Assembly: GCA_964016885.1 (NCBI GenBank)
Contig: OZ024749.1
Location: forward strand, 6,138,001-6,202,000
Reading direction: 5' to 3'
Origin: Eledone cirrhosa
Lineage: Eukaryota
DNA length: 64,000 nucleotides
Part shown: in pieces, positions 20,599 to 64,000 of the stretch
Position numbering within the stretch: the stretch's first letter is position 1
Layout: each line of letters opens with the position of its first letter
Position numbers and translations under genes: made by a program
Notes under the pieces: generated by a model
Told to the model about the DNA's origin: nothing
Databases searched by the model: none
The model's input: only the letters and a program-made list of their open reading frames with translations

Positions 20599-21152
20599 TT
20601 GGTTTGGTGCATAATTATTGCGGCTTTTTTTCAACAAATTTTATTTAACGAAAACAATAACAATATTTAACAAAAACATCTTTAAATGGCGGTGGGGTTT
20701 TTTCTCTTTTCAGAATGCGTATCGAAAAATCATATCCACATTCGCCATATTATGCTCTACCACTTCGAGAAAGGTTGCAATGCAGCCTCAGTCATTTCGT
20801 GATCTCAATGAAGTTTTTGGTGAAGGTACAACCAGCAAAAGCCAAGTTGAAAGATGGTTCAGGAAGTTCAAATCGGGCGATACAAACCTTGCTGATGACG
20901 AAGGAAGAGGTCGACCATCAAATTTCAATGACCAGGCACTTTTGGCAGCTGTGGAAGAGGACGAAAGCTTGACAACGAGAATGTTGGGTGAAGACTTCAA
21001 TGTGGACCATTCGACCATCGTTCGTCGTCTCAAAAAGCTCAGAAAAGTATGGAAATTGGCTGGGTGGGTCCCCCACGAACTCTCTGATAACAACAAAGCC
21101 GAACGTGTCCGAATTTTTACCGATTTGCCGCAATAATTATACACCAACCCAA
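20599..21152 (+). mobile_element. Internally deleted mariner element with both TIRs
   Basis: TIRs TTGGTTTGGTGCATAATTATTGCGG and CCGCAATAATTATACACCAACCCAA are each flanked by TA. It encodes a frameshifted N-terminal HTH region through WVPHEL and has no catalytic domain. Confidence 0.93.
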
Positions 21153-23559: not shown

Positions 23560-24205
23560 TTGGTTACAGAAAATGTTTTATGTTTTCCACATTCCCGAAA
23601 TGATGACCCTTCAACTTCAGTTTTAAATTATCAAATTAGGGAAGTTGTAGAAATTACAGGGAGCTAGATTTGAGCTGTAGGGAGGATGTCAAAGAATGAG
23701 AGTGTTTTTCTTCACCAGAGGTTCTCTAATTGAACATGAGCAAGGCATGTTATCATGGGGCAGTGCTCAATTTCCTGCAATGTCCTTTCAGATTAACTGA
23801 ATACATTTTTTTTTTAAGTCATTCAAAGACATCTTTCTAGAAGTTGTGATTAACTGTCTGTCCTGGATTTTAAAATTCTGTGTGACAATGTGACAGTAGT
23901 TGAAAAAAATCATCATTTTTAGCCTGGATGTGCTCATACATGCTTTATTTGTATGAGGAGAATTTTTCGTATCCATCTCCTCGTGTTGCTTCTTTGTCTC
24001 GTGATTGTACTCAAACACACATGGCTCATCTGCTGTTATCACTTAATTCAAGAACTGTGGCTCAATTTTAAGTATTTCTAATAAATCCTAACAAATTTTC
24101 AACCACTTCACTTTTTGCTCCACAGACAAGTGTTTAGACAATAGTTTCTCACAAATTTTTCATGTGCAAATTGTTTGTTTAAATTCAGGGAACTGCTTTT
24201 TCTTT
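23560..24205 (-). pseudogene. Decayed mariner transposase catalytic-domain fragment
   Basis: ITADEPCVFEYNHETKKQ (ITGDETW-like), with downstream HDNM (HDNA-like) and YSSNLAP (YSPDLAP-like) motifs, plus stops and frameshifts. Confidence 0.8.
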
Positions 24206-24227
24206 TATCAAAGTTCATTTCTTCTGC

Positions 24228-25405
24228 AGGGACTAGAAAGAAAGGGTCTCAAAGTCAACATGACAAAGACTAAGGTCCTTGTAAGTAGACGAGAAAACAG
24301 AACCCAGATCCCCTCAGGGAAATGGCCTTGCTCAGTATGTAGGAAAGGTGTAGGTAGGAACTCCATTCTCTGCCCCAAATGCAAACAATGGGTACACAAG
24401 AGATGTAGCGGGATCTCAGGAAGCTTAATTAAGAATGTAGGATTCACATGCAGCAAAAAGCCACAGGAAACAAGTACCACCAATCTCTGGGAGGGCTCTG
24501 TAGAAACAGTAGACAGCTTCTGCTACCTAGGTGACCGAATTAGCAGCGGAGGTGGGTGTTCAGAAAGTACAATAACTAGGGTAAGAACGGGATGGAAGAA
24601 GTTCAGGGAACTACTGCCACTGCTAGCTGCAAAAGGCTTCTCCCTCAATATGAAAGGCAGACTGTATGATGCGTGTATCTGAACAGCAATGTTACATGGT
24701 AGTGAGACCTGGGCGCTGAAGGTGGAAGACTTACGTAGATTAGAAAGAAACGAAGCCTGAATGCTCCGATGGATGTGTAATAGTAATATACGCGAACGAC
24801 AAAGCATAAATGAATTGAGAGAGAGACTGAGCATAAGAGGAATCAAATGATGTGTGCAGGAGAGGCGATTGCATTGGTATGGACATGTGATGCGTATGAA
24901 GGATGACAGCTGCATAGAAAGGTGCAGAGCACTAGAAGTCAATAGAAACCGCGGAGTGGGAGACCCAAGGAGACATGGAATGAGGTGATAAAAGCCGACC
25001 TTACCCAATTACACCTCTCAAAGGCGATGACACACGACTGTGACATCTGGCGTCATGCAGTAATACAGAGTACCCGACCTCCCATGGGTACAAGCTGAAG
25101 CATATAGACAATATGCCCCCACACCCTCCCACTGGAAAGTGATCGTGGAGGTGCCACGGCAAAACAGCACCCAGCCCACACTGTAAAGTGGACGTGTAGG
25201 CACCACAGCAAAAAAAGCACTCAGCACTCACTGTAAATGAGGTTGGTATTAGGAAGGGCACCCAGCTGTAGAAATCAAGCCAAAATCAGTTCCTGTATGA
25301 GCAAGACAAGGTCAGCCGACCAGACACTGCCCACAACAGGACAATCCTTCTAACCCATGCTAGCATGGAAGAACGGATGTATGATGATGATGATGATGAT
25401 GATGA
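24228..25405 (+). mobile_element. Decayed RTE LINE (RT C-terminus, Cys/His-rich motif, 3' UTR)
   Basis: GLKVNMTKTKVLV..WPCSVCRKGVGRNSILCPKCKQWVHKRCSGI..DSFCYLGD..RLYDACI*, with in-frame stops and a (GAT)n tail. Confidence 0.92.
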
Positions 25406-38343: not shown

Positions 38344-39004
38344 ATCAATATATGTATTTATCTATCAAGATGGAGAGAGAGGTGCTGTACCCCAGCAAGT
38401 TTTATGAAAGGTGGGTGAAAGTGGCGAGAATGGCCCGAGTGAATTGGCCTTCTCTCTATATCAGCCTGTAGGTGGAGGAAGAGGAGGAAGAGAGGAAAGG
38501 AGTGCTCAGTCTTCGTACTCCTGGAGATGAGGGTTGCACATTTTTTTTTCGGGGGTATGTGTCACCCATAGTTAATGTCTCACCCCACCCCTATTGGGGA
38601 AAATCGATTGTTATTCTTTAATTTTCATCTGTGATATTGTTTTACACGTTTTTATTGAATGTAAACTTCCCCCATTGTACTTGTCCCCTTCTTTTGTGCC
38701 CTTGTGGCTAATAAAGAATTATATGTATCTATCTATCTATCTATATATCCCTCTCTCTCTATATATATACATATATATATACACACTCTCTCTCTCTATA
38801 TATATATATACACACATATATATACACACACTCAAGAATTCATTTTCTTATAGATCCATGTAATAGTGTATACACCCATGTTTTCACAAACACAAATGCA
38901 GCTATACTTGTATGTATACTTGTGTGCATGTGAGTGTGTGTTTATGCGTGTATCAATATTTTCATCATAGATATATATACACACACACACACATATATAT
39001 GTAT

Positions 39005-40153
39005 AAACTCAATTGTATGTCCCAAATGCAAAGTATGGGTGCATAAAAGATGTAGTGGGATCACAGGTAAGCCAACTAAGAACATAGATTTTATATGTGG
39101 CCGGTGTTCTGGTGTAATAAGTAGCAGCAAATGCCCACAAAATACTAGCTCTTTCAATTGCGCAGAGGGTTCTATAGAAATAGTGGATAGCTTCCGTTGC
39201 CTGGGTGACAAAATCAGCAGTGGGGGAGGGTGCTCTGAAAGTTCAGTAGCTAGAGTCAGAACTGGATGGAAAAAGTTCAGAGAGCTCATACCACTATTAG
39301 CCACTAAAGGGTTCTCCCTAAAAATGAAAGGCAGGTTGTATGATGCCTGCATACGAACAGCAATGTTGCATGGCAGTGAGACCTGGGCATTGTGTGCAGA
39401 GGATATACGCAGACTAGAGAGGAATGAAGCTTGCATGCTCCACTGGATGTGTAATAGTAACATACGTGAACGGCAAAGCTTAAGCGAACTAAGGAAAAAA
39501 TTAGAAATAAGAGGGATCAGATGTTGTTTACTCGAGAGAAGGCTACATTGGTATGGTCACGTGATGCGCATGAAAGACGACAGCTGTATAACAAAGTGCA
39601 GGGCAATAAAGATAGATGGTAGCCACGGAGTAGGCAGACCCAGGAAAACCTGGGACGAGCTGATAAATTCCGACCTCACACACTTACACCTCTCCAAGAC
39701 AATGTCACTGGACCGAGACCTTTGGCGGTACTCAGTAATAGAGAAGACCCGCCTTACCTAAATACAAAGTAAAACCTACTACAGTCAGTAGGCATCTCTA
39801 ACAAAATACACCCCCGTCCCACCACCCCGACCCCATCCACACCGCCCCTTTCAATGTAAAGTTATGTTGGTGCCACAACATCCAGGCCGAAACAAATGAG
39901 ATCGTGTAGGGGTCACGACAAAAAAACACACAGTCCACGCTGTAATGTGGCCGTGTAGGCAACACGGTAAAAACCTCCCAGTCCCACACTGTAAACGTGG
40001 TTGGTGTTAGGAAGGGCATCCAGCTGTAGAAAACCAGCCAGACAGTCCTATGCGAGCAAGACAATCACTCTTGCCTCAAGTGGGAAAACCCCCGTCCAAA
40101 CCCATGCAAGCATGGAACACGGACGTTAAACGATGATGATGATGATGATGATG
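39005..40153 (+). mobile_element. 5'-truncated RTE LINE with an uninterrupted C-terminal ORF segment
   Basis: ORF 38934-39761: NSIVCPKCKVWVHKRCSGI..MLHGSETW..RRLHWYGHVMRM..GRPRKTW, then a UTR and a (GAT)n tail. Confidence 0.93.
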
Positions 40154-41430: not shown

Positions 41431-41521
41431 GTATTTTGTTTATTCCAAATATTGATTAAGCTAGTGTGGTAGACTTCACCTTTAGCGGTAAACTTAATCT
41501 TGGGTATTAGACTTAAAACCT

Positions 41522-42123
41522 TCATCATCATCATCATCATTTTACATCCGCTTTTCCCTGCTTGCAAGGGTGGGACGGGTCCTCCTCAGCGCAGCATATC
41601 TCCATTCATTACGGTCCTTTGTCATCTCCTCCATGAGTTTCAGCGATCTGAGGTCAGCTCTCACCACCTTCGCCCATGTTTTTCTTGGTCTTCCTCTACT
41701 GCGTCTTCCTTCCATTGGGATTTCTTGGCACTTCTTTACCCAGTGATCATCTTCCATGCACATCACATGTCCATACCATCTCAGTCTTCTCTCCTGCACA
41801 CCACAACTTATCCCTCTTATTCCCAGTTTCTTTCTCAACTTATCTATGCTTGGTCATTCACGCACATTGACATTGTACATCCAACGGAGCATGCTTGCTC
41901 CATTTCTTCCAGCAGTCTCATATCTTCCACAGTAGCTGCCCATGTCTCACTACCATGCAGCATCGTGCATCTCACATGGGCATCATATAACCGACCTTTC
42001 GTTCATAGATAGAAACTTTTCTTTATCAACAGAGGAAGCAGCTCCCTAAGCTTCATTCAGTCTGTCCTTATTCTAGATACTATGGCCTCAGAGCATCCCC
42101 CTCCCCTGCTAATCCGATCACCT
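41522..42123 (-). mobile_element. Decayed RTE LINE 3' end
   Basis: RKKLGIRGISCGVQERRLRWYGHVM..GRPRKTW. Homologous to 456-1091. Confidence 0.9.
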
Positions 42124-58388: not shown

Positions 58389-58544
58389 TATTTATATATA
58401 TATATATATTGGAATAAATGCTCTGAAATAGCGATATATATGTGAATATAGACATAGAATATTCGAAAATATTCTGTATGTTTATAATAAACATTTTGAA
58501 GACCTAATCGCTATAGAATAGAATACGTCACGTATTACAATTAG

Positions 58545-58634
58545 ATTCTCGATAAAAGCAAGGGAAGTAAATCTACGCGTTTCATTCTTATTAGAAATCG
58601 TCAGGACTACATATCCAGTGCTTTCATCGAGAAT
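58545..58634 (-). ncRNA. Type I hammerhead ribozyme (leftmost - strand copy; 6 copies on -)
   Basis: Reverse complement of the motif at 60390-60479. Predicted cleavage nucleotides are 58574, 58885, 59196, 59507, 59818 and 60129. Confidence 0.8.
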
Positions 58635-60389
58635 GACACAGCTAGAGACTTATAGAATACTTAGCTGTGTACAGGAACTGGTTTGAAAGAGCGGTTGCCG
58701 GTCCGGCAGAAATTAGAAATTGGAATAAATGCTCTGAAATAGCGATATATATGTGAATATAGACATAGAATATTCGAAAATATTCTGTATGTTTATAATA
58801 AACATTTTGAAGACCTAATCGCTATAGAATAGAATACGTCACGTATTACAATTAGATTCTCGATAAAAGCAAGGGAAGTAAATCTACGCGTTTCATTCTT
58901 ATTAGAAATCGTCAGGACTACATATCCAGTGCTTTCATCGAGAATGACACAGCTAGAGACTTATAGAATACTTAGCTGTGTACAGGAACTGGTTTGAAAG
59001 AGCGGTTGCCGGTCCGGCAGAAATTAGAAATTGGAATAAATGCTCTGAAATAGCGATATATATGTGAATATAGACATAGAATATTCGAAAATATTCTGTA
59101 TGTTTATAATAAACATTTTGAAGACCTAATCGCTATAGAATAGAATACGTCACGTATTACAATTAGATTCTCGATAAAAGCAAGGGAAGTAAATCTACGC
59201 GTTTCATTCTTATTAGAAATCGTCAGGACTACATATCCAGTGCTTTCATCGAGAATGACACAGCTAGAGACTTATAGAATACTTAGCTGTGTACAGGAAC
59301 TGGTTTGAAAGAGCGGTTGCCGGTCCGGCAGAAATTAGAAATTGGAATAAATGCTCTGAAATAGCGATATATATGTGAATATAGACATAGAATATTCGAA
59401 AATATTCTGTATGTTTATAATAAACATTTTGAAGACCTAATCGCTATAGAATAGAATACGTCACGTATTACAATTAGATTCTCGATAAAAGCAAGGGAAG
59501 TAAATCTACGCGTTTCATTCTTATTAGAAATCGTCAGGACTACATATCCAGTGCTTTCATCGAGAATGACACAGCTAGAGACTTATAGAATACTTAGCTG
59601 TGTACAGGAACTGGTTTGAAAGAGCGGTTGCCGGTCCGGCAGAAATTAGAAATTGGAATAAATGCTCTGAAATAGCGATATATATGTGAATATAGACATA
59701 GAATATTCGAAAATATTCTGTATGTTTATAATAAACATTTTGAAGACCTAATCGCTATAGAATAGAATACGTCACGTATTACAATTAGATTCTCGATAAA
59801 AGCAAGGGAAGTAAATCTACGCGTTTCATTCTTATTAGAAATCGTCAGGACTACATATCCAGTGCTTTCATCGAGAATGACACAGCTAGAGACTTATAGA
59901 ATACTTAGCTGTGTACAGGAACTGGTTTGAAAGAGCGGTTGCCGGTCCGGCAGAAATTAGAAATTGGAATAAATGCTCTGAAATAGCGATATATATGTGA
60001 ATATAGACATAGAATATTCGAAAATATTCTGTATGTTTATAATAAACATTTTGAAGACCTAATCGCTATAGAATAGAATACGTCACGTATTACAATTAGA
60101 TTCTCGATAAAAGCAAGGGAAGTAAATCTACGCGTTTCATTCTTATTAGAAATCGTCAGGACTACATATCCAGTGCTTTCATCGAGAATGACACAGCTAG
60201 AGACTTATAGAATACTTAGCTGTGTACAGGAACTGGTTTGAAAGAGCGGTTGCCGGTCCGGCAGAAATTAGAAATTGGAATAAATGCTCTGAAATAGCGA
60301 TATATATGTGAATATAGACATAGAATATTCGAAAATATTCTGTATGTTTATAATAAACATTTTGAAGACCTAATCGCTATAGCTGTGTC

Positions 60390-60479
60390 ATTCTCGATGA
60401 AAGCACTGGATATGTAGTCCTGACGATTTCTAATAAGAATGAAACGCGTAGATTTACTTCCCTTGCTTTTATCGAGAAT
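60390..60479 (+). ncRNA. Type I hammerhead ribozyme (first + strand copy; repeated every 311 bp, 6 copies on +)
   Basis: ATTCTCGATGAAAGCA..GTAGTC-CTGACGA-T-TTCT-AATA-AGAA-T-GAAAC-GC-GTA/GATTTAC..TGCTTTTATCGAGAAT. It has CUGANGA and GAAA cores, a 4-bp stem II, palindromic stem III ACGCGT, a GUA site (cut after 60450) and a 16-bp distal stem I. Confidence 0.8.
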
Positions 60480-62279
60480 CTAATTGTAATACGTGACGTA
60501 TTCTATTCTATAGCGATTAGGTCTTCAAAATGTTTATTATAAACATACAGAATATTTTCGAATATTCTATGTCTATATTCACATATATATCGCTATTTCA
60601 GAGCATTTATTCCAATTTCTAATTTCTGCCGGACCGGCAACCGCTCTTTCAAACCAGTTCCTGTACACAGCTAAGTATTCTATAAGTCTCTAGCTGTGTC
60701 ATTCTCGATGAAAGCACTGGATATGTAGTCCTGACGATTTCTAATAAGAATGAAACGCGTAGATTTACTTCCCTTGCTTTTATCGAGAATCTAATTGTAA
60801 TACGTGACGTATTCTATTCTATAGCGATTAGGTCTTCAAAATGTTTATTATAAACATACAGAATATTTTCGAATATTCTATGTCTATATTCACATATATA
60901 TCGCTATTTCAGAGCATTTATTCCAATTTCTAATTTCTGCCGGACCGGCAACCGCTCTTTCAAACCAGTTCCTGTACACAGCTAAGTATTCTATAAGTCT
61001 CTAGCTGTGTCATTCTCGATGAAAGCACTGGATATGTAGTCCTGACGATTTCTAATAAGAATGAAACGCGTAGATTTACTTCCCTTGCTTTTATCGAGAA
61101 TCTAATTGTAATACGTGACGTATTCTATTCTATAGCGATTAGGTCTTCAAAATGTTTATTATAAACATACAGAATATTTTCGAATATTCTATGTCTATAT
61201 TCACATATATATCGCTATTTCAGAGCATTTATTCCAATTTCTAATTTCTGCCGGACCGGCAACCGCTCTTTCAAACCAGTTCCTGTACACAGCTAAGTAT
61301 TCTATAAGTCTCTAGCTGTGTCATTCTCGATGAAAGCACTGGATATGTAGTCCTGACGATTTCTAATAAGAATGAAACGCGTAGATTTACTTCCCTTGCT
61401 TTTATCGAGAATCTAATTGTAATACGTGACGTATTCTATTCTATAGCGATTAGGTCTTCAAAATGTTTATTATAAACATACAGAATATTTTCGAATATTC
61501 TATGTCTATATTCACATATATATCGCTATTTCAGAGCATTTATTCCAATTTCTAATTTCTGCCGGACCGGCAACCGCTCTTTCAAACCAGTTCCTGTACA
61601 CAGCTAAGTATTCTATAAGTCTCTAGCTGTGTCATTCTCGATGAAAGCACTGGATATGTAGTCCTGACGATTTCTAATAAGAATGAAACGCGTAGATTTA
61701 CTTCCCTTGCTTTTATCGAGAATCTAATTGTAATACGTGACGTATTCTATTCTATAGCGATTAGGTCTTCAAAATGTTTATTATAAACATACAGAATATT
61801 TTCGAATATTCTATGTCTATATTCACATATATATCGCTATTTCAGAGCATTTATTCCAATTTCTAATTTCTGCCGGACCGGCAACCGCTCTTTCAAACCA
61901 GTTCCTGTACACAGCTAAGTATTCTATAAGTCTCTAGCTGTGTCATTCTCGATGAAAGCACTGGATATGTAGTCCTGACGATTTCTAATAAGAATGAAAC
62001 GCGTAGATTTACTTCCCTTGCTTTTATCGAGAATCTAATTGTAATACGTGACGTATTCTATTCTATAGCGATTAGGTCTTCAAAATGTTTATTATAAACA
62101 TACAGAATATTTTCGAATATTCTATGTCTATATTCATATATATATATATATATACATATACATATCTGTGTTTATCTCTCTTTTATATTCAATTATATTA
62201 CAAGGCCCGAAAACATTTCTTTCCTTGAACTATTTAATTGTGAGAGACTATTTTGAGTATCTAACTCTATATATGCCTT

Positions 62280-62474: not shown

Positions 62475-62863
62475 AGGCGCATGGCTTAGTGGTTAGAGTA
62501 TTGGGCTTGCAATCGAAAGGTTGTGAGTTCAATTCTCAGACCGGGTGATGTGTTGTTTTCTTGAGCAAGACATTTTATTTCACATTGCTCCAGTTTACTC
62601 AGCTATAGAAATGAGATGATAGGGACTGGGGTCCCTATCATTCCACTGCAAAGTGGTCGTGGAGGTGCCACGGCAAAAAAAAAAGCAATTAGAACACATG
62701 TATACTTATATCGGTGTTCATCCCTCTCATATATCCACTTATATTACATGGCTCGGAAGGATTCCTTGTGTGGAAGGGCATCCAGCTGTAGAAATCAAGC
62801 CAGAATCAGTTCCCAACCCACCCTTGCTAGCAGGGAAAAGCAGGCGTAAAATGATGATGATGA
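62475..62863 (+). mobile_element. SINE A with internal replacement (about 62687-62770)
   Basis: Head and tail match the family, and the middle is foreign sequence. Confidence 0.85.
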
Positions 62864-63078
62864 TGGCTACCTAACAGTTTGTCTTCATTATTCTTTTTAT
62901 TTTCGGTTGTTTTTTTACTTGGACTACCTTTTATTTTCTGTATCTATCTTTTGTGATCCTGTCTCTATGTCTGTACTCCTGAAGCAGGTCTAAAACCAGA
63001 CATGCTGAACTTTCTTTCCCCATTTCCATATAAAGCGTGAAACTAAGACTTTTTGTACCTCTGTTTGTTGTCTCTTTG

Positions 63079-63127: not shown

Positions 63128-63780
63128 CATCATTTTACGTCCACTTTTTCCCTGCTTGCAAGGGTGGGACGGGAACTGATGCTGGCTTGATTTCTACAGC
63201 TGGATGCCCTTCCTAACACCAACATCGTTTACAGTGAGTGCTGGGTGCTTTTTTGCCGTGGCACCTCCACGACCACTTTGCAGTGGAATGATAGGGACCC
63301 CAGTCCCTATCATCTTATTTCTACAGCTGAGTAAACTGGAGCAATGTGAAACAACACATCTCCCGGTCTGAGAATTGAACTCACAACCTTTCGATTGCAA
63401 GCCCAATGCTCTAACCACTAAGTCATGTGCCTGGAGCAACGTGAAATAAAGTCTATTGCTCAAGGAAACAACACATCACCCAGTTCGAGAATTGAACTCA
63501 CAACCTTTCGATTGCAAGGCCAATGCTCTAACCACTAAGTCATGTGCCTGGAGCAACGTGAAATAAAGTCTATTGCTCAAGGAAACAACACATCACCCAG
63601 TTCGAGAATTGAACTCACAACCTTTCGATTGCAAGCCCAGTGCTCTAACCACTAAGTCATGTGCCTGGAGCAACGTGAAATAAAGTCTATTGCTCAAGGA
63701 AACAACACATCACCCAGTTCGAGAATTGAACTCACAACCTTTCGATTGCAAGGCCAATGCTCTAACAATATGTGCCTCCA
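63128..63780 (-). mobile_element. SINE A with tandemly multiplied 117-bp tRNA-like head
   Basis: AGTCATGTGCCTGGAGCAACG at 63421, 63538 and 63655, giving four heads in total. Confidence 0.88.
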
Positions 63781-64000
63781 TTTAAATATATACATATGTA
63801 CCTGAGTGTGTAAGAAATCAATAAGAAATACTTATCTTTAAACTTCAAAGCAATGTTTCAACACGACAACAACAACAACCATAATGAGATAAGTGTTTCA
63901 AATGTTCTTCTGTATCATAGTAATTTAATGAGGAACTTTCAACCTGAATAATTACCCTTTCGGTTTGATTGTGTATATATTTATGTAAGTATGTATGTAT

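What the first reader, a model, noticed from the sequence alone, without database searches (positions are those of the whole stretch)
58408..62136. 311-nt tandem monomers each carrying a type I hammerhead: candidate retrozyme / circular-RNA element
Seen: an apparently invariant, non-coding 311-bp unit repeated about 12 times. Each full unit has CTGACGA, stem II (TTCT/AGAA, AATA loop), GAAAC-GC-GTA, and a bulged stem I closed by a 16-bp helix (ATTCTCGATGAAAGCA / TGCTTTTATCGAGAAT). Established: metazoan non-LTR retrozymes are tandem monomers of a few hundred bp with type I hammerheads that self-cleave to unit length and circularise, and they are thought to use Penelope-like reverse transcriptases. 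Inference: transcripts are cut after GUA (60450 + 311n on +; 58574 + 311n on -) to release 311-nt linear or circular RNAs. I do not recognise this family, but I cannot establish that it is new.
Basis: partly seen in the sequence, partly recalled or inferred. Interest (0 to 1): 0.92.

Follow-up and report, generated by a model that had tools for sequence, protein, structure and literature searches.

The report
Ribozyme repeat inserted by Penelope machinery
This is a young, non-coding mobile repeat carrying a self-cleaving RNA motif; its copies sit as back-to-back arrays whose two ends bear the signature of Penelope-like retrotransposons, which points to how such elements are copied, probably from a small RNA circle.

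Summary
In detail: 12.0 identical 311-bp units, 12 type I hammerheads, cut sites as stated. The family has an estimated 1,500-2,200 insertions. Their outer ends fall at two fixed points of the unit, 26-35 nt apart, one of each per insertion (13 of 13 loci chosen without regard to ends; 25 of 26 classifiable loci in older sister families). That is the Penelope-like element (PLE) 'tail', and autonomous Neptune-like PLEs in this genome show it too. Both arms share one haplotype (24 of 24), run through up to 27 ribozyme sites and stop at random phase. The hammerhead covaries across sister families. Best reading: a non-LTR retrozyme copied in trans by a PLE reverse transcriptase/endonuclease that primes both ends of a break at two RNA sites, probably on a circular monomer. 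Not shown: transcription, cleavage, circles, or the partner PLE, which I searched for and did not find. Trace matches in other organisms look like carry-over in the three tested. New member of a known kind, with an informative insertion record.

The parts
58408..60382 (-). Left arm: 6.35 tandem units read leftwards; outer end at unit phase 166 (long end), inner end at phase 58. Phase 1 is the base after the predicted cut.
60380..62136 (+). Right arm: 5.65 tandem units read rightwards; inner end at phase 241, outer end at phase 131 (short end)
60380..60382 (.). Inversion junction with 3-bp microhomology shared by both arms
58408..58442 (-). 35-nt 'tail' (phase 132-166) present at the left outer end and absent at the right outer end
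   Evidence: definition of the PLE tail in PMC8557442 and PMC11167929
58264..58407 (.). Left flank: (CT)n then (TA)n microsatellite, abutting the long end
62137..62154 (.). Right flank: (TA)n, abutting the short end
60451..60761 (+). One 311-nt monomer, cut site to cut site (predicted circular RNA)
   Evidence: fold z = -4.1; the RNA itself was not observed
60390..60479 (+). Type I hammerhead with extended stem I (first + copy; repeats every 311 bp; 12 copies in the window)
60420..60450 (+). Core: CUGACGA 60420-60426, U-U at 60427/60440, stem II 60428-60439, GAAA 60441-60444, palindromic stem III 60444-60449, cut after A at 60450
60548..60569 (+). Apical hairpin of the conserved module upstream of the two end sites, with compensatory changes in sister families
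60581..60621 (+). The two inferred reverse-transcription start zones in a unit: phase 131-140 (ends in an 8-nt AU tract) and phase 166-171
   Evidence: end positions; role as start sites inferred from PMC11167929

Best explanation
A young non-autonomous Penelope-like element of the non-LTR retrozyme kind. Steps: (1) an array is transcribed (inferred); (2) neighbouring hammerheads pair through the palindromic stem III, cut after GUA and release 311-nt monomers, which a host ligase closes to circles (inferred from known retrozymes); (3) a PLE reverse transcriptase/GIY-YIG endonuclease, probably a Neptune-like one acting as a dimer, binds the conserved module, cuts both strands in (TA)n, and primes one DNA end at phase 166-171 and the other at phase 131-140 (end positions shown, enzyme inferred); (4) each end is extended for a random number of turns round the template, giving two multimeric arms of one haplotype whose RNA 3' ends face outward (layout shown, circular template inferred); (5) the free inner ends are joined through short microhomology (shown as a junction pattern). 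I put PLE-type insertion at about 0.9, an active ribozyme at about 0.75, and a circular template at about 0.65.
For: Ends: 33 of 36 family loci have one short (122-140) and one long (166-171) end in (TA)n; 3 were unresolved. Thirteen of the 33 were chosen without regard to ends and all 13 are mixed. In 40 sister-family loci chosen by the long end only, the other end was short in 25, long in 1, other or cut off in 4, no inverted arm in 10. Control: autonomous RT + GIY-YIG families here show the same layout in 3 of 3 inverted pairs of family C and 3 of 3 of family G. A 30-40 bp tail at one end and an inverted 5'-truncated copy are the published PLE signature (PMC8557442, PMC3846280), and the tail equals the distance between two RT start sites of a PLE protein that cuts and extends both strands and is modelled as a dimer (PMC11167929). 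One template: both arms carry the same haplotype in 24 of 24 loci with full units in both arms, while 18 chromosome-1 loci hold 11 haplotypes. No fixed 5' end: 68 inner ends are uniform over the unit (Rayleigh p 0.62), 0 lie within 5 nt of the cut site (2.2 expected), arms reach 27 units. Microhomology of 2 nt or more at 19 of 34 junctions against 18% expected. Ribozyme under constraint: fixed differences between loci fall on tolerated positions (N7, 10.1, loop II, stem I bulge or wobble) and spare the conserved core; in 21 units from this and sister families the 3-8 pair is C-G in 6, U-A in 12, mismatched in 3; 15 of 31 stem pairs show two-sided changes, 86.8% of cells pair against 39-50% in slid controls. 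A cut linear monomer primed at phase 166 could give at most 166 nt without the ribozyme core, so it could not propagate the unit (inference).
Against: No RNA, cleavage or circle was observed. No autonomous partner with a homologous terminal repeat was found in 82 PLE-containing loci. In the one PLE tested in vitro, ribozyme cleavage was not needed and unprocessed RNA was the main substrate (PMC11167929), and 8 of 9 predicted frog retrozyme dimers did not cleave in vitro (10.64898/2026.07.22.740005). The U-U at the base of stem II and the 2-bp stem III predict a weak ribozyme; Rfam does not score it. A few variants occur twice within one array at uneven spacing, which shows some local exchange. 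Repair could trim cDNA ends and hide run-off at the cut site. Two sister RNAs from one source array would also give matching arms. One possible short/short pair (C1:22024299-22024519) was not fetched. The covariation set is 21 sequences from about four related families, and the structure was drawn from the window copy.
Confidence: 0.68

Rival explanations
1. Same PLE enzyme and same two start sites, but the template is a long linear, uncut multimeric transcript; the hammerhead is slow, protein-gated or used for another step.
For: Ribozyme mutants did not affect insertion by the anole PLE in vitro and unprocessed RNA was the main substrate (PMC11167929). Source arrays of up to 27 units exist. 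Matching arms and random inner ends are also expected from 5' truncation on one linear RNA.
Against: New haplotypes are fixed in every unit of an array (11 haplotypes in 18 loci) and no array held a variant in more than about a fifth of its units, which needs a one-unit bottleneck. No inner end sits at the cut site (0 of 68), although partly cut linear RNAs would start there. The ribozyme is conserved with covariation.
Confidence: 0.2
2. The PLE enzyme inserts only a short inverted piece, and the long arrays grow later in place by slippage or unequal crossing-over, as proposed for frog retrozymes.
For: This local-amplification route is proposed in 10.64898/2026.07.22.740005. Some variants recur within an array and a few arms have internal deletions or phase shifts.
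Against: The young family has long arms (median 1,580 nt) with 44 variants in 349 units, while older sister families are short (median span 431 nt; 1 of 40 reached 800 nt within an 870-nt fetch). Growth with age predicts the opposite. The older families might simply have been copied less processively.
Confidence: 0.08
3. Twin priming by an ordinary LINE reverse transcriptase made the inversions.
For: Outward-facing arms with microhomology at the junction are what twin priming makes (recalled, no call); LINE fragments are abundant in the window.
Against: No poly(A) or fixed 3' end; both ends start inside the unit at two fixed sites; inner ends are not tied to the second priming site (12 of 68 in phase 120-172, 11.6 expected); the layout matches the Neptune-like PLEs of this genome.
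Confidence: 0.02
4. An assembly artefact (fold-back long reads, collapsed consensus) or foreign DNA.
For: Perfect identity and palindromic layout can arise from fold-back reads; some arrays border assembly gaps (L039, L040).
Against: The arms are not mirror images: ends differ by 35 nt, inner phases differ (58 and 241) and the flanks differ. The layout recurs on many chromosomes, in diverged haplotypes and in 75-82% identical sister families. The unit is deep in separately assembled contigs of run X1, which may be the source sample.
Confidence: 0.02

Closest known systems
Metazoan non-LTR retrozymes (coral, mussel, axolotl Rtz_331 and Rtz_353; PMC7229834)
   Same: Tandem units in the 150-450 bp range, GC under 50% (34%), non-coding, one type I hammerhead per unit. 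Axolotl HHR_Amex2 also has a U-U at the base of helix II and cleaves better as a dimer.
   Different: Expression, cleavage and circles were measured there and not here. In the parts I read (results, discussion, word search) that paper does not describe inverted two-arm insertions, offset ends or microsatellite targets, and does not mention cephalopods; its supplement could not be read.
Endonuclease-bearing Penelope-like elements (Neptune, Poseidon, Naiad; PMC8557442, PMC3846280, PMC11167929)
   Same: Inverted 5'-truncated arm, 30-40 bp tail at one end only, AT-rich or (TA)n targets, hammerhead in the terminal repeat, two internal start sites.
   Different: No ORF; the whole element is the terminal repeat, copied up to 27 times per arm.
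Frog retrozymes derived from PLE terminal repeats (10.64898/2026.07.22.740005)
   Same: Non-autonomous PLE relatives with type I hammerheads in tandem units of about 300 bp.
   Different: That link rests on co-occurrence, homology and trees, and arrays are ascribed to local amplification. Here the link rests on insertion ends, no homologous parent PLE was found, and the data lean towards arrays made at insertion.
MRC1 and other non-autonomous Chlamys elements of Chlamydomonas (PMC8557442, PMC9940879)
   Same: Non-autonomous PLEs that make multicopy head-to-tail insertions.
   Different: Their clade lacks canonical hammerheads, and they resemble their autonomous partner at the 3' end; neither holds here.
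Neptune-like families C and G of the same genome
   Same: Inverted pairs in (TA)n with one short and one long end; hammerheads with U-U at the base of stem II and a palindromic stem III; family G has an internal (TA)n followed by a 32-nt tail.
   Different: No significant sequence similarity to the unit (tail alignment p = 0.11). Family C's tail is about 45-50 nt. Family G looks old: longest open frame 664 aa among 150 scored.

Membership tests
Type I hammerhead ribozyme | Conserved core CUGANGA, GAAA, UH with three helices, open at helix I | tested here: met
   12 of 12 window copies
Type I hammerhead ribozyme | Covariation of helices and of the 3-8 pair among homologs | tested here: met
   15 of 31 pairs with two-sided change; C-G in 6 and U-A in 12 of 21. 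Few independent families.
Type I hammerhead ribozyme | G10.1-C11.1 closing pair of helix II | tested here: not met
   U-U in the window, A-U in 3 of 18 chromosome-1 loci, G-C in the main sister family; U-U is tolerated in axolotl HHR_Amex2
Type I hammerhead ribozyme | Scores against an Rfam hammerhead model | tested here: not met
   No hit
Type I hammerhead ribozyme | Self-cleavage | not testable with these tools
   Needs an in vitro assay
Non-LTR retrozyme | Tandem non-coding units of 150-450 bp, GC under 50%, one type I hammerhead each, no LTR organisation | tested here: met
   311 bp, 34% GC, longest frame 59 codons; PBS and PPT were not searched for separately
Non-LTR retrozyme | Dispersed multicopy family, i.e. 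mobile | tested here: met
   501 exact cores of the window haplotype; 778 and 1,094 forward-strand end matches; arrays on many chromosomes
Non-LTR retrozyme | Expressed as unit-length linear and circular RNA | not testable with these tools
   No RNA holder was listed, which is no evidence either way
Non-autonomous PLE (endonuclease-plus type) | Inverted 5'-truncated arm beside the direct arm | tested here: met
   34 of 36 family loci gave a two-arm junction
Non-autonomous PLE (endonuclease-plus type) | 30-40 bp tail at one end only | tested here: met
   Offset 26-35 nt for the commonest ends; 13 of 13 unbiased loci, 25 of 26 classifiable sister loci
Non-autonomous PLE (endonuclease-plus type) | AT-rich or microsatellite target | tested here: met
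   All 68 resolved ends run into (TA)n; whether the tract was there before insertion is open (one partial empty-site match)
Non-autonomous PLE (endonuclease-plus type) | Target-site duplication | tested here: inconclusive
   Cannot be read inside (TA)n; no clean empty allele found
Non-autonomous PLE (endonuclease-plus type) | Terminal homology to an autonomous PLE in the same genome | tested here: inconclusive
   None in 82 PLE-containing loci of about eight families, but only 40 of 150 scored hits, out of 10,597 GIY-YIG candidates, were opened; Naiad-type elements were not searched

The most novel reading that the evidence does not exclude
Each insertion is the fossil of one PLE enzyme dimer that docked on a single 311-nt ribozyme-made RNA circle, primed the two ends of a double-strand break at two fixed sites 26-35 nt apart, and rolled round the circle from both. 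If so, this is direct genomic evidence that animal retrozyme circles are the transposition intermediate, that PLEs move them, that the PLE tail reflects an obligatory one-long-one-short pairing of the two active sites, and that satellite-like arrays of several kilobases are written in one step.
Probability: 0.5. Interest if true: 0.78.

Novelty: new member of a known kind. Interest (0 to 1): 0.6.

Why it matters
[quoted passage not shown] This family is young and numerous enough that the insertion mechanism can be read from the ends: a near-strict pairing of one long and one short end, one haplotype per insertion, and random inner ends. It offers a 311-nt substrate, two predicted start sites and a (TA)n target for an in vitro test of PLE integration and of rolling-circle reverse transcription, and over a thousand loci for a genome-wide test. 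It also shows a route by which a satellite-like array may arise in one step, and each insertion is a multi-kilobase inverted repeat that would form long double-stranded RNA if read through.

Tried and rejected
Horizontal transfer: 20 runs under 18 organism labels hold 55-90% of the unit's words. Laying four runs on one unit plus a flanking host repeat gave 0 of 12.8 million raw reads for organism F (a different sample from the indexed one), and for organisms E and O unit depths of 34 and 5 together with the host repeat (up to about 2,000 and 3), against roughly 10^5 and 10^7 in run X1. I read this as trace carry-over; 14 other labels were not tested. Expression: no RNA holder listed. Rfam: nothing. 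Exact patterns in metagenome and viral contigs: 0 matches. Partner search: GIY-YIG family scan, two protein scans, BLAST and nhmmer of the unit and of a 21-unit profile against 82 PLE-containing loci, 30 plus 40 sister-family loci checked for PLE coding sequence (only L130 had an adjacent endonuclease fragment, joined through a short inverted repeat); no homologous parent. Family G considered and set aside. Empty-site search among held loci gave one partial match (one search timed out). Periodicity of repeated within-array variants as a sign of a multimeric circle: not periodic. Long-end arm longer than short-end arm: 18 of 33, counted by hand, p = 0.73. Earlier scan findings: nothing. Dfam and Repbase were not available, so a prior library entry for this unit is not excluded. 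The 2017 paper on dimeric PLE hammerheads was not held.
Full report
Observation. The unit is exactly 311 bp and is repeated without a mismatch over 58408-60382 and 60380-62136, 12.0 units in all. The locus is not one tandem array: it is (TA)n, an array reading leftwards, a 3-bp overlap, an array reading rightwards, (TA)n. I number the unit from the base after the predicted cut (phase 1). The left outer end is at phase 166, the right outer end at phase 131, and the inner ends at 58 and 241, so the arms are not mirror images.

Host and family. The window lies in a 3.0-Gb genome. From memory its SINEs and microsatellite load look like an octopod cephalopod; I did not test this. The window haplotype's 31-nt core occurs 501 times. 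The two end motifs followed by (TA)n have 778 and 1,094 forward-strand matches; reverse counts are inflated by overlapping gap lengths. Doubling the forward counts gives roughly 1,500-2,200 insertions. With a mean of about 3.5 kb in the 20 chromosome-1 loci (worked out by hand; these loci were picked for having two ends) this is some 5-8 Mb, an extrapolation. Units differ by 1-2% between loci and by 44 variants in 349 units within loci, so the burst is recent.

The ends. I examined 36 loci: the window, 15 picked by identity to the unit and 20 picked because a long and a short end lay near each other. Thirty-three have one short end (phase 122-140, mostly 131) and one long end (166-171, mostly 166); two touch assembly gaps and one has a complex left end. 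Only the 13 resolved loci of the first two groups are unbiased, and all 13 are mixed (1 in 8,192 if ends chose independently at even odds). An independent test came from older sister families, 75-82% identical over most of the unit, with 1,825 long ends: of 40 loci chosen by the long end alone, the inverted arm ended short in 25 and long in 1; 3 ended elsewhere, 1 ran off the fetch and 10 showed no inverted arm. One possible short/short pair in the list was not fetched. An inverted 5'-truncated copy and a 30-40 bp tail at one end only are the described PLE signature (PMC8557442 and PMC3846280, passages). In the one PLE reconstituted in vitro the tail is the distance between two internal RT start sites, and the protein cuts and extends both strands of AT-rich DNA and is modelled as a dimer (PMC11167929, main text). 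As a control in this genome, autonomous families with RT and C-terminal GIY-YIG domains and a Cx4Cx2C motif before the endonuclease, which PMC8557442 assigns to Neptune and Nematis, show one short and one long end in 3 of 3 inverted pairs (family C) and 3 of 3 (family G).

The template. Both arms carry the same haplotype in 24 of 24 loci with full units in both arms. Eleven of these share the window haplotype by selection; the 13 chromosome-1 loci come from a set of 18 loci with 11 haplotypes, several private to one locus. Haplotype differences are fixed in all units of an array. Inner ends are uniform over the unit (68 ends, Rayleigh p 0.62), none within 5 nt of the cut site (2.2 expected, so this alone is weak), the two arm lengths are uncorrelated (rho 0.07), the median arm is 1,580 nt and the longest spans 27 units; 19 of 34 junctions have 2 nt or more of microhomology, 5 are blunt and 5 carry inserted bases. 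A circle explains a one-unit bottleneck, no natural 5' end and long arms together. An uncut linear multimer explains the last two and needs later homogenisation for the first. Growth in place is less likely because the young family is long and the old ones short (median span 431 nt), although a few variants repeated within an array show some local exchange.

The ribozyme. Helix I of 6 bp, helix II of 4 bp and a 2-bp helix III with a palindromic cap fit the canonical metazoan type I form that needs a dimer to cleave well (PMC4209133, passages); two stem III strands form a -9.5 kcal/mol duplex. The U-U at the base of helix II is non-canonical but occurs in an active axolotl variant (PMC7229834) and in the PLE hammerheads of this genome. 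Fixed differences between loci hit N7 (three states), position 10.1 (to A-U), loop II and stem I wobble or bulge positions; the only change seen in the invariant catalytic or stem III positions is a single-unit variant. Across 21 units from this and the sister families the 3-8 pair switches between C-G (6) and U-A (12), with 3 mismatched old copies; 15 of 31 named pairs change on both sides, and 86.8% of cells pair against 78.7% in shuffles (0 of 500) and 39-50% in slid controls. These counts rest on about four related families. Against activity: Rfam gives no hit, the predicted lowest-energy fold is not the active one, and 8 of 9 predicted frog retrozymes failed to cleave in vitro (10.64898/2026.07.22.740005).

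What was not found. No autonomous partner: none of 82 PLE-containing loci from about eight families carries a terminal repeat homologous to the unit, and all nearby matches were independent retrozyme insertions. The search covered a small share of 10,597 endonuclease candidates. No RNA run was listed. Matches in 17 other organism labels looked like carry-over in the three tested.

Comparison with print. Non-LTR retrozymes, their circles and the proposal that PLEs copy them are published (PMC7229834: parts 2-3 of 6, discussion and word search; PMC7761336: passages; PMC4209133: passages). A 2026 preprint links them to PLE terminal repeats by distribution and phylogeny (abstract to end of discussion and word search). 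Non-autonomous PLEs with multicopy head-to-tail insertions are known in Chlamydomonas. Six literature searches listed no report of this family, of a cephalopod retrozyme, or of inverted, tailed retrozyme insertions; most subscription papers are outside that library, the supplements of PMC7229834 and of the preprint could not be read, and Dfam and Repbase were not available, so either could hold this.

Verdict. A real, recently active non-LTR retrozyme family; works like a non-autonomous Neptune-type PLE, and meets the structural tests for that, with terminal homology to a partner unresolved. It is a new member of a known kind. Its value is that the insertion record turns two standing proposals, PLE mobilisation and a circular template, into specific tests. 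Interest 0.6.

Noticed in passing
L106-L135, L178-L217, L067:2440-2870, L086:332-705: At least three older sister retrozyme families (units about 313-324 bp) share the conserved module and both end sites but carry different hammerheads, many with a UUGAUAA core and a longer palindromic stem III; 1,825 long ends genome-wide.
   Followed up: yes
L098:7579-9901, L099, L168, L171, L175: Another hammerhead repeat family (about 490-bp units containing an internal (TA)n, U-U at the base of stem II in most copies, palindromic stem III), in tandem and inverted copies; only weak profile similarity to the unit (E 0.01-0.3).
   Followed up: partly
L094:7861-8010, L096, L088, L091; decayed copy beside L063: A short, nearly perfect palindromic element with a hammerhead whose stem II is almost the same as the window unit's; possibly the source of the young family's ribozyme.
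   Followed up: no
family haplotypes, unit phases 93, 260, 277, 296: Four of 11 fixed substitutions, polarised on the commonest haplotype, are A to G on the RNA strand, against 1 of 31 within-array substitutions (Fisher p 0.013). Could be A-to-I editing fixed by reverse transcription, or simply tolerance of G-U wobble; small numbers, found after looking.
   Followed up: partly
L062 junction (about 1599-1870): A 272-bp unrelated, GC-richer sequence lies between the two arms; either captured at the junction or a later insertion.
   Followed up: no
L086-L105, L136-L177: Several Neptune-like PLE families with long open frames (938, 1,096, 1,289 aa and at least eight of about 796 aa) and inverted pairs; family B has a long microsatellite-rich 3' region and no hammerhead found by my pattern.
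   Followed up: partly
window 57941-58265, 62475-62865, 63130-63797 and 55958-56506: tRNA-derived SINE copies on both sides of the array, in both orientations, including a 117-bp tandem triplication at 63348-63766.
   Followed up: no
window 20615-21136, 24092-24682, 38934-39761, 41473-42012: Fragments that look like a mariner transposase and LINE reverse transcriptases (names from recall, not scanned).
   Followed up: no
runs X4-X20: The unit is detectable in assemblies labelled as 17 other organisms; in the three tested it behaved like trace carry-over, so it may mislead word-based transfer screens.
   Followed up: partly
L060 and L061 (G000:C1:43583242-43593786): Two separate insertions of different haplotypes lie about 1.1 kb apart, and several sister-family or PLE insertions sit in one another's (TA)n tracts (L067, L130, L175), suggesting that the tracts act as repeated targets.
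   Followed up: no
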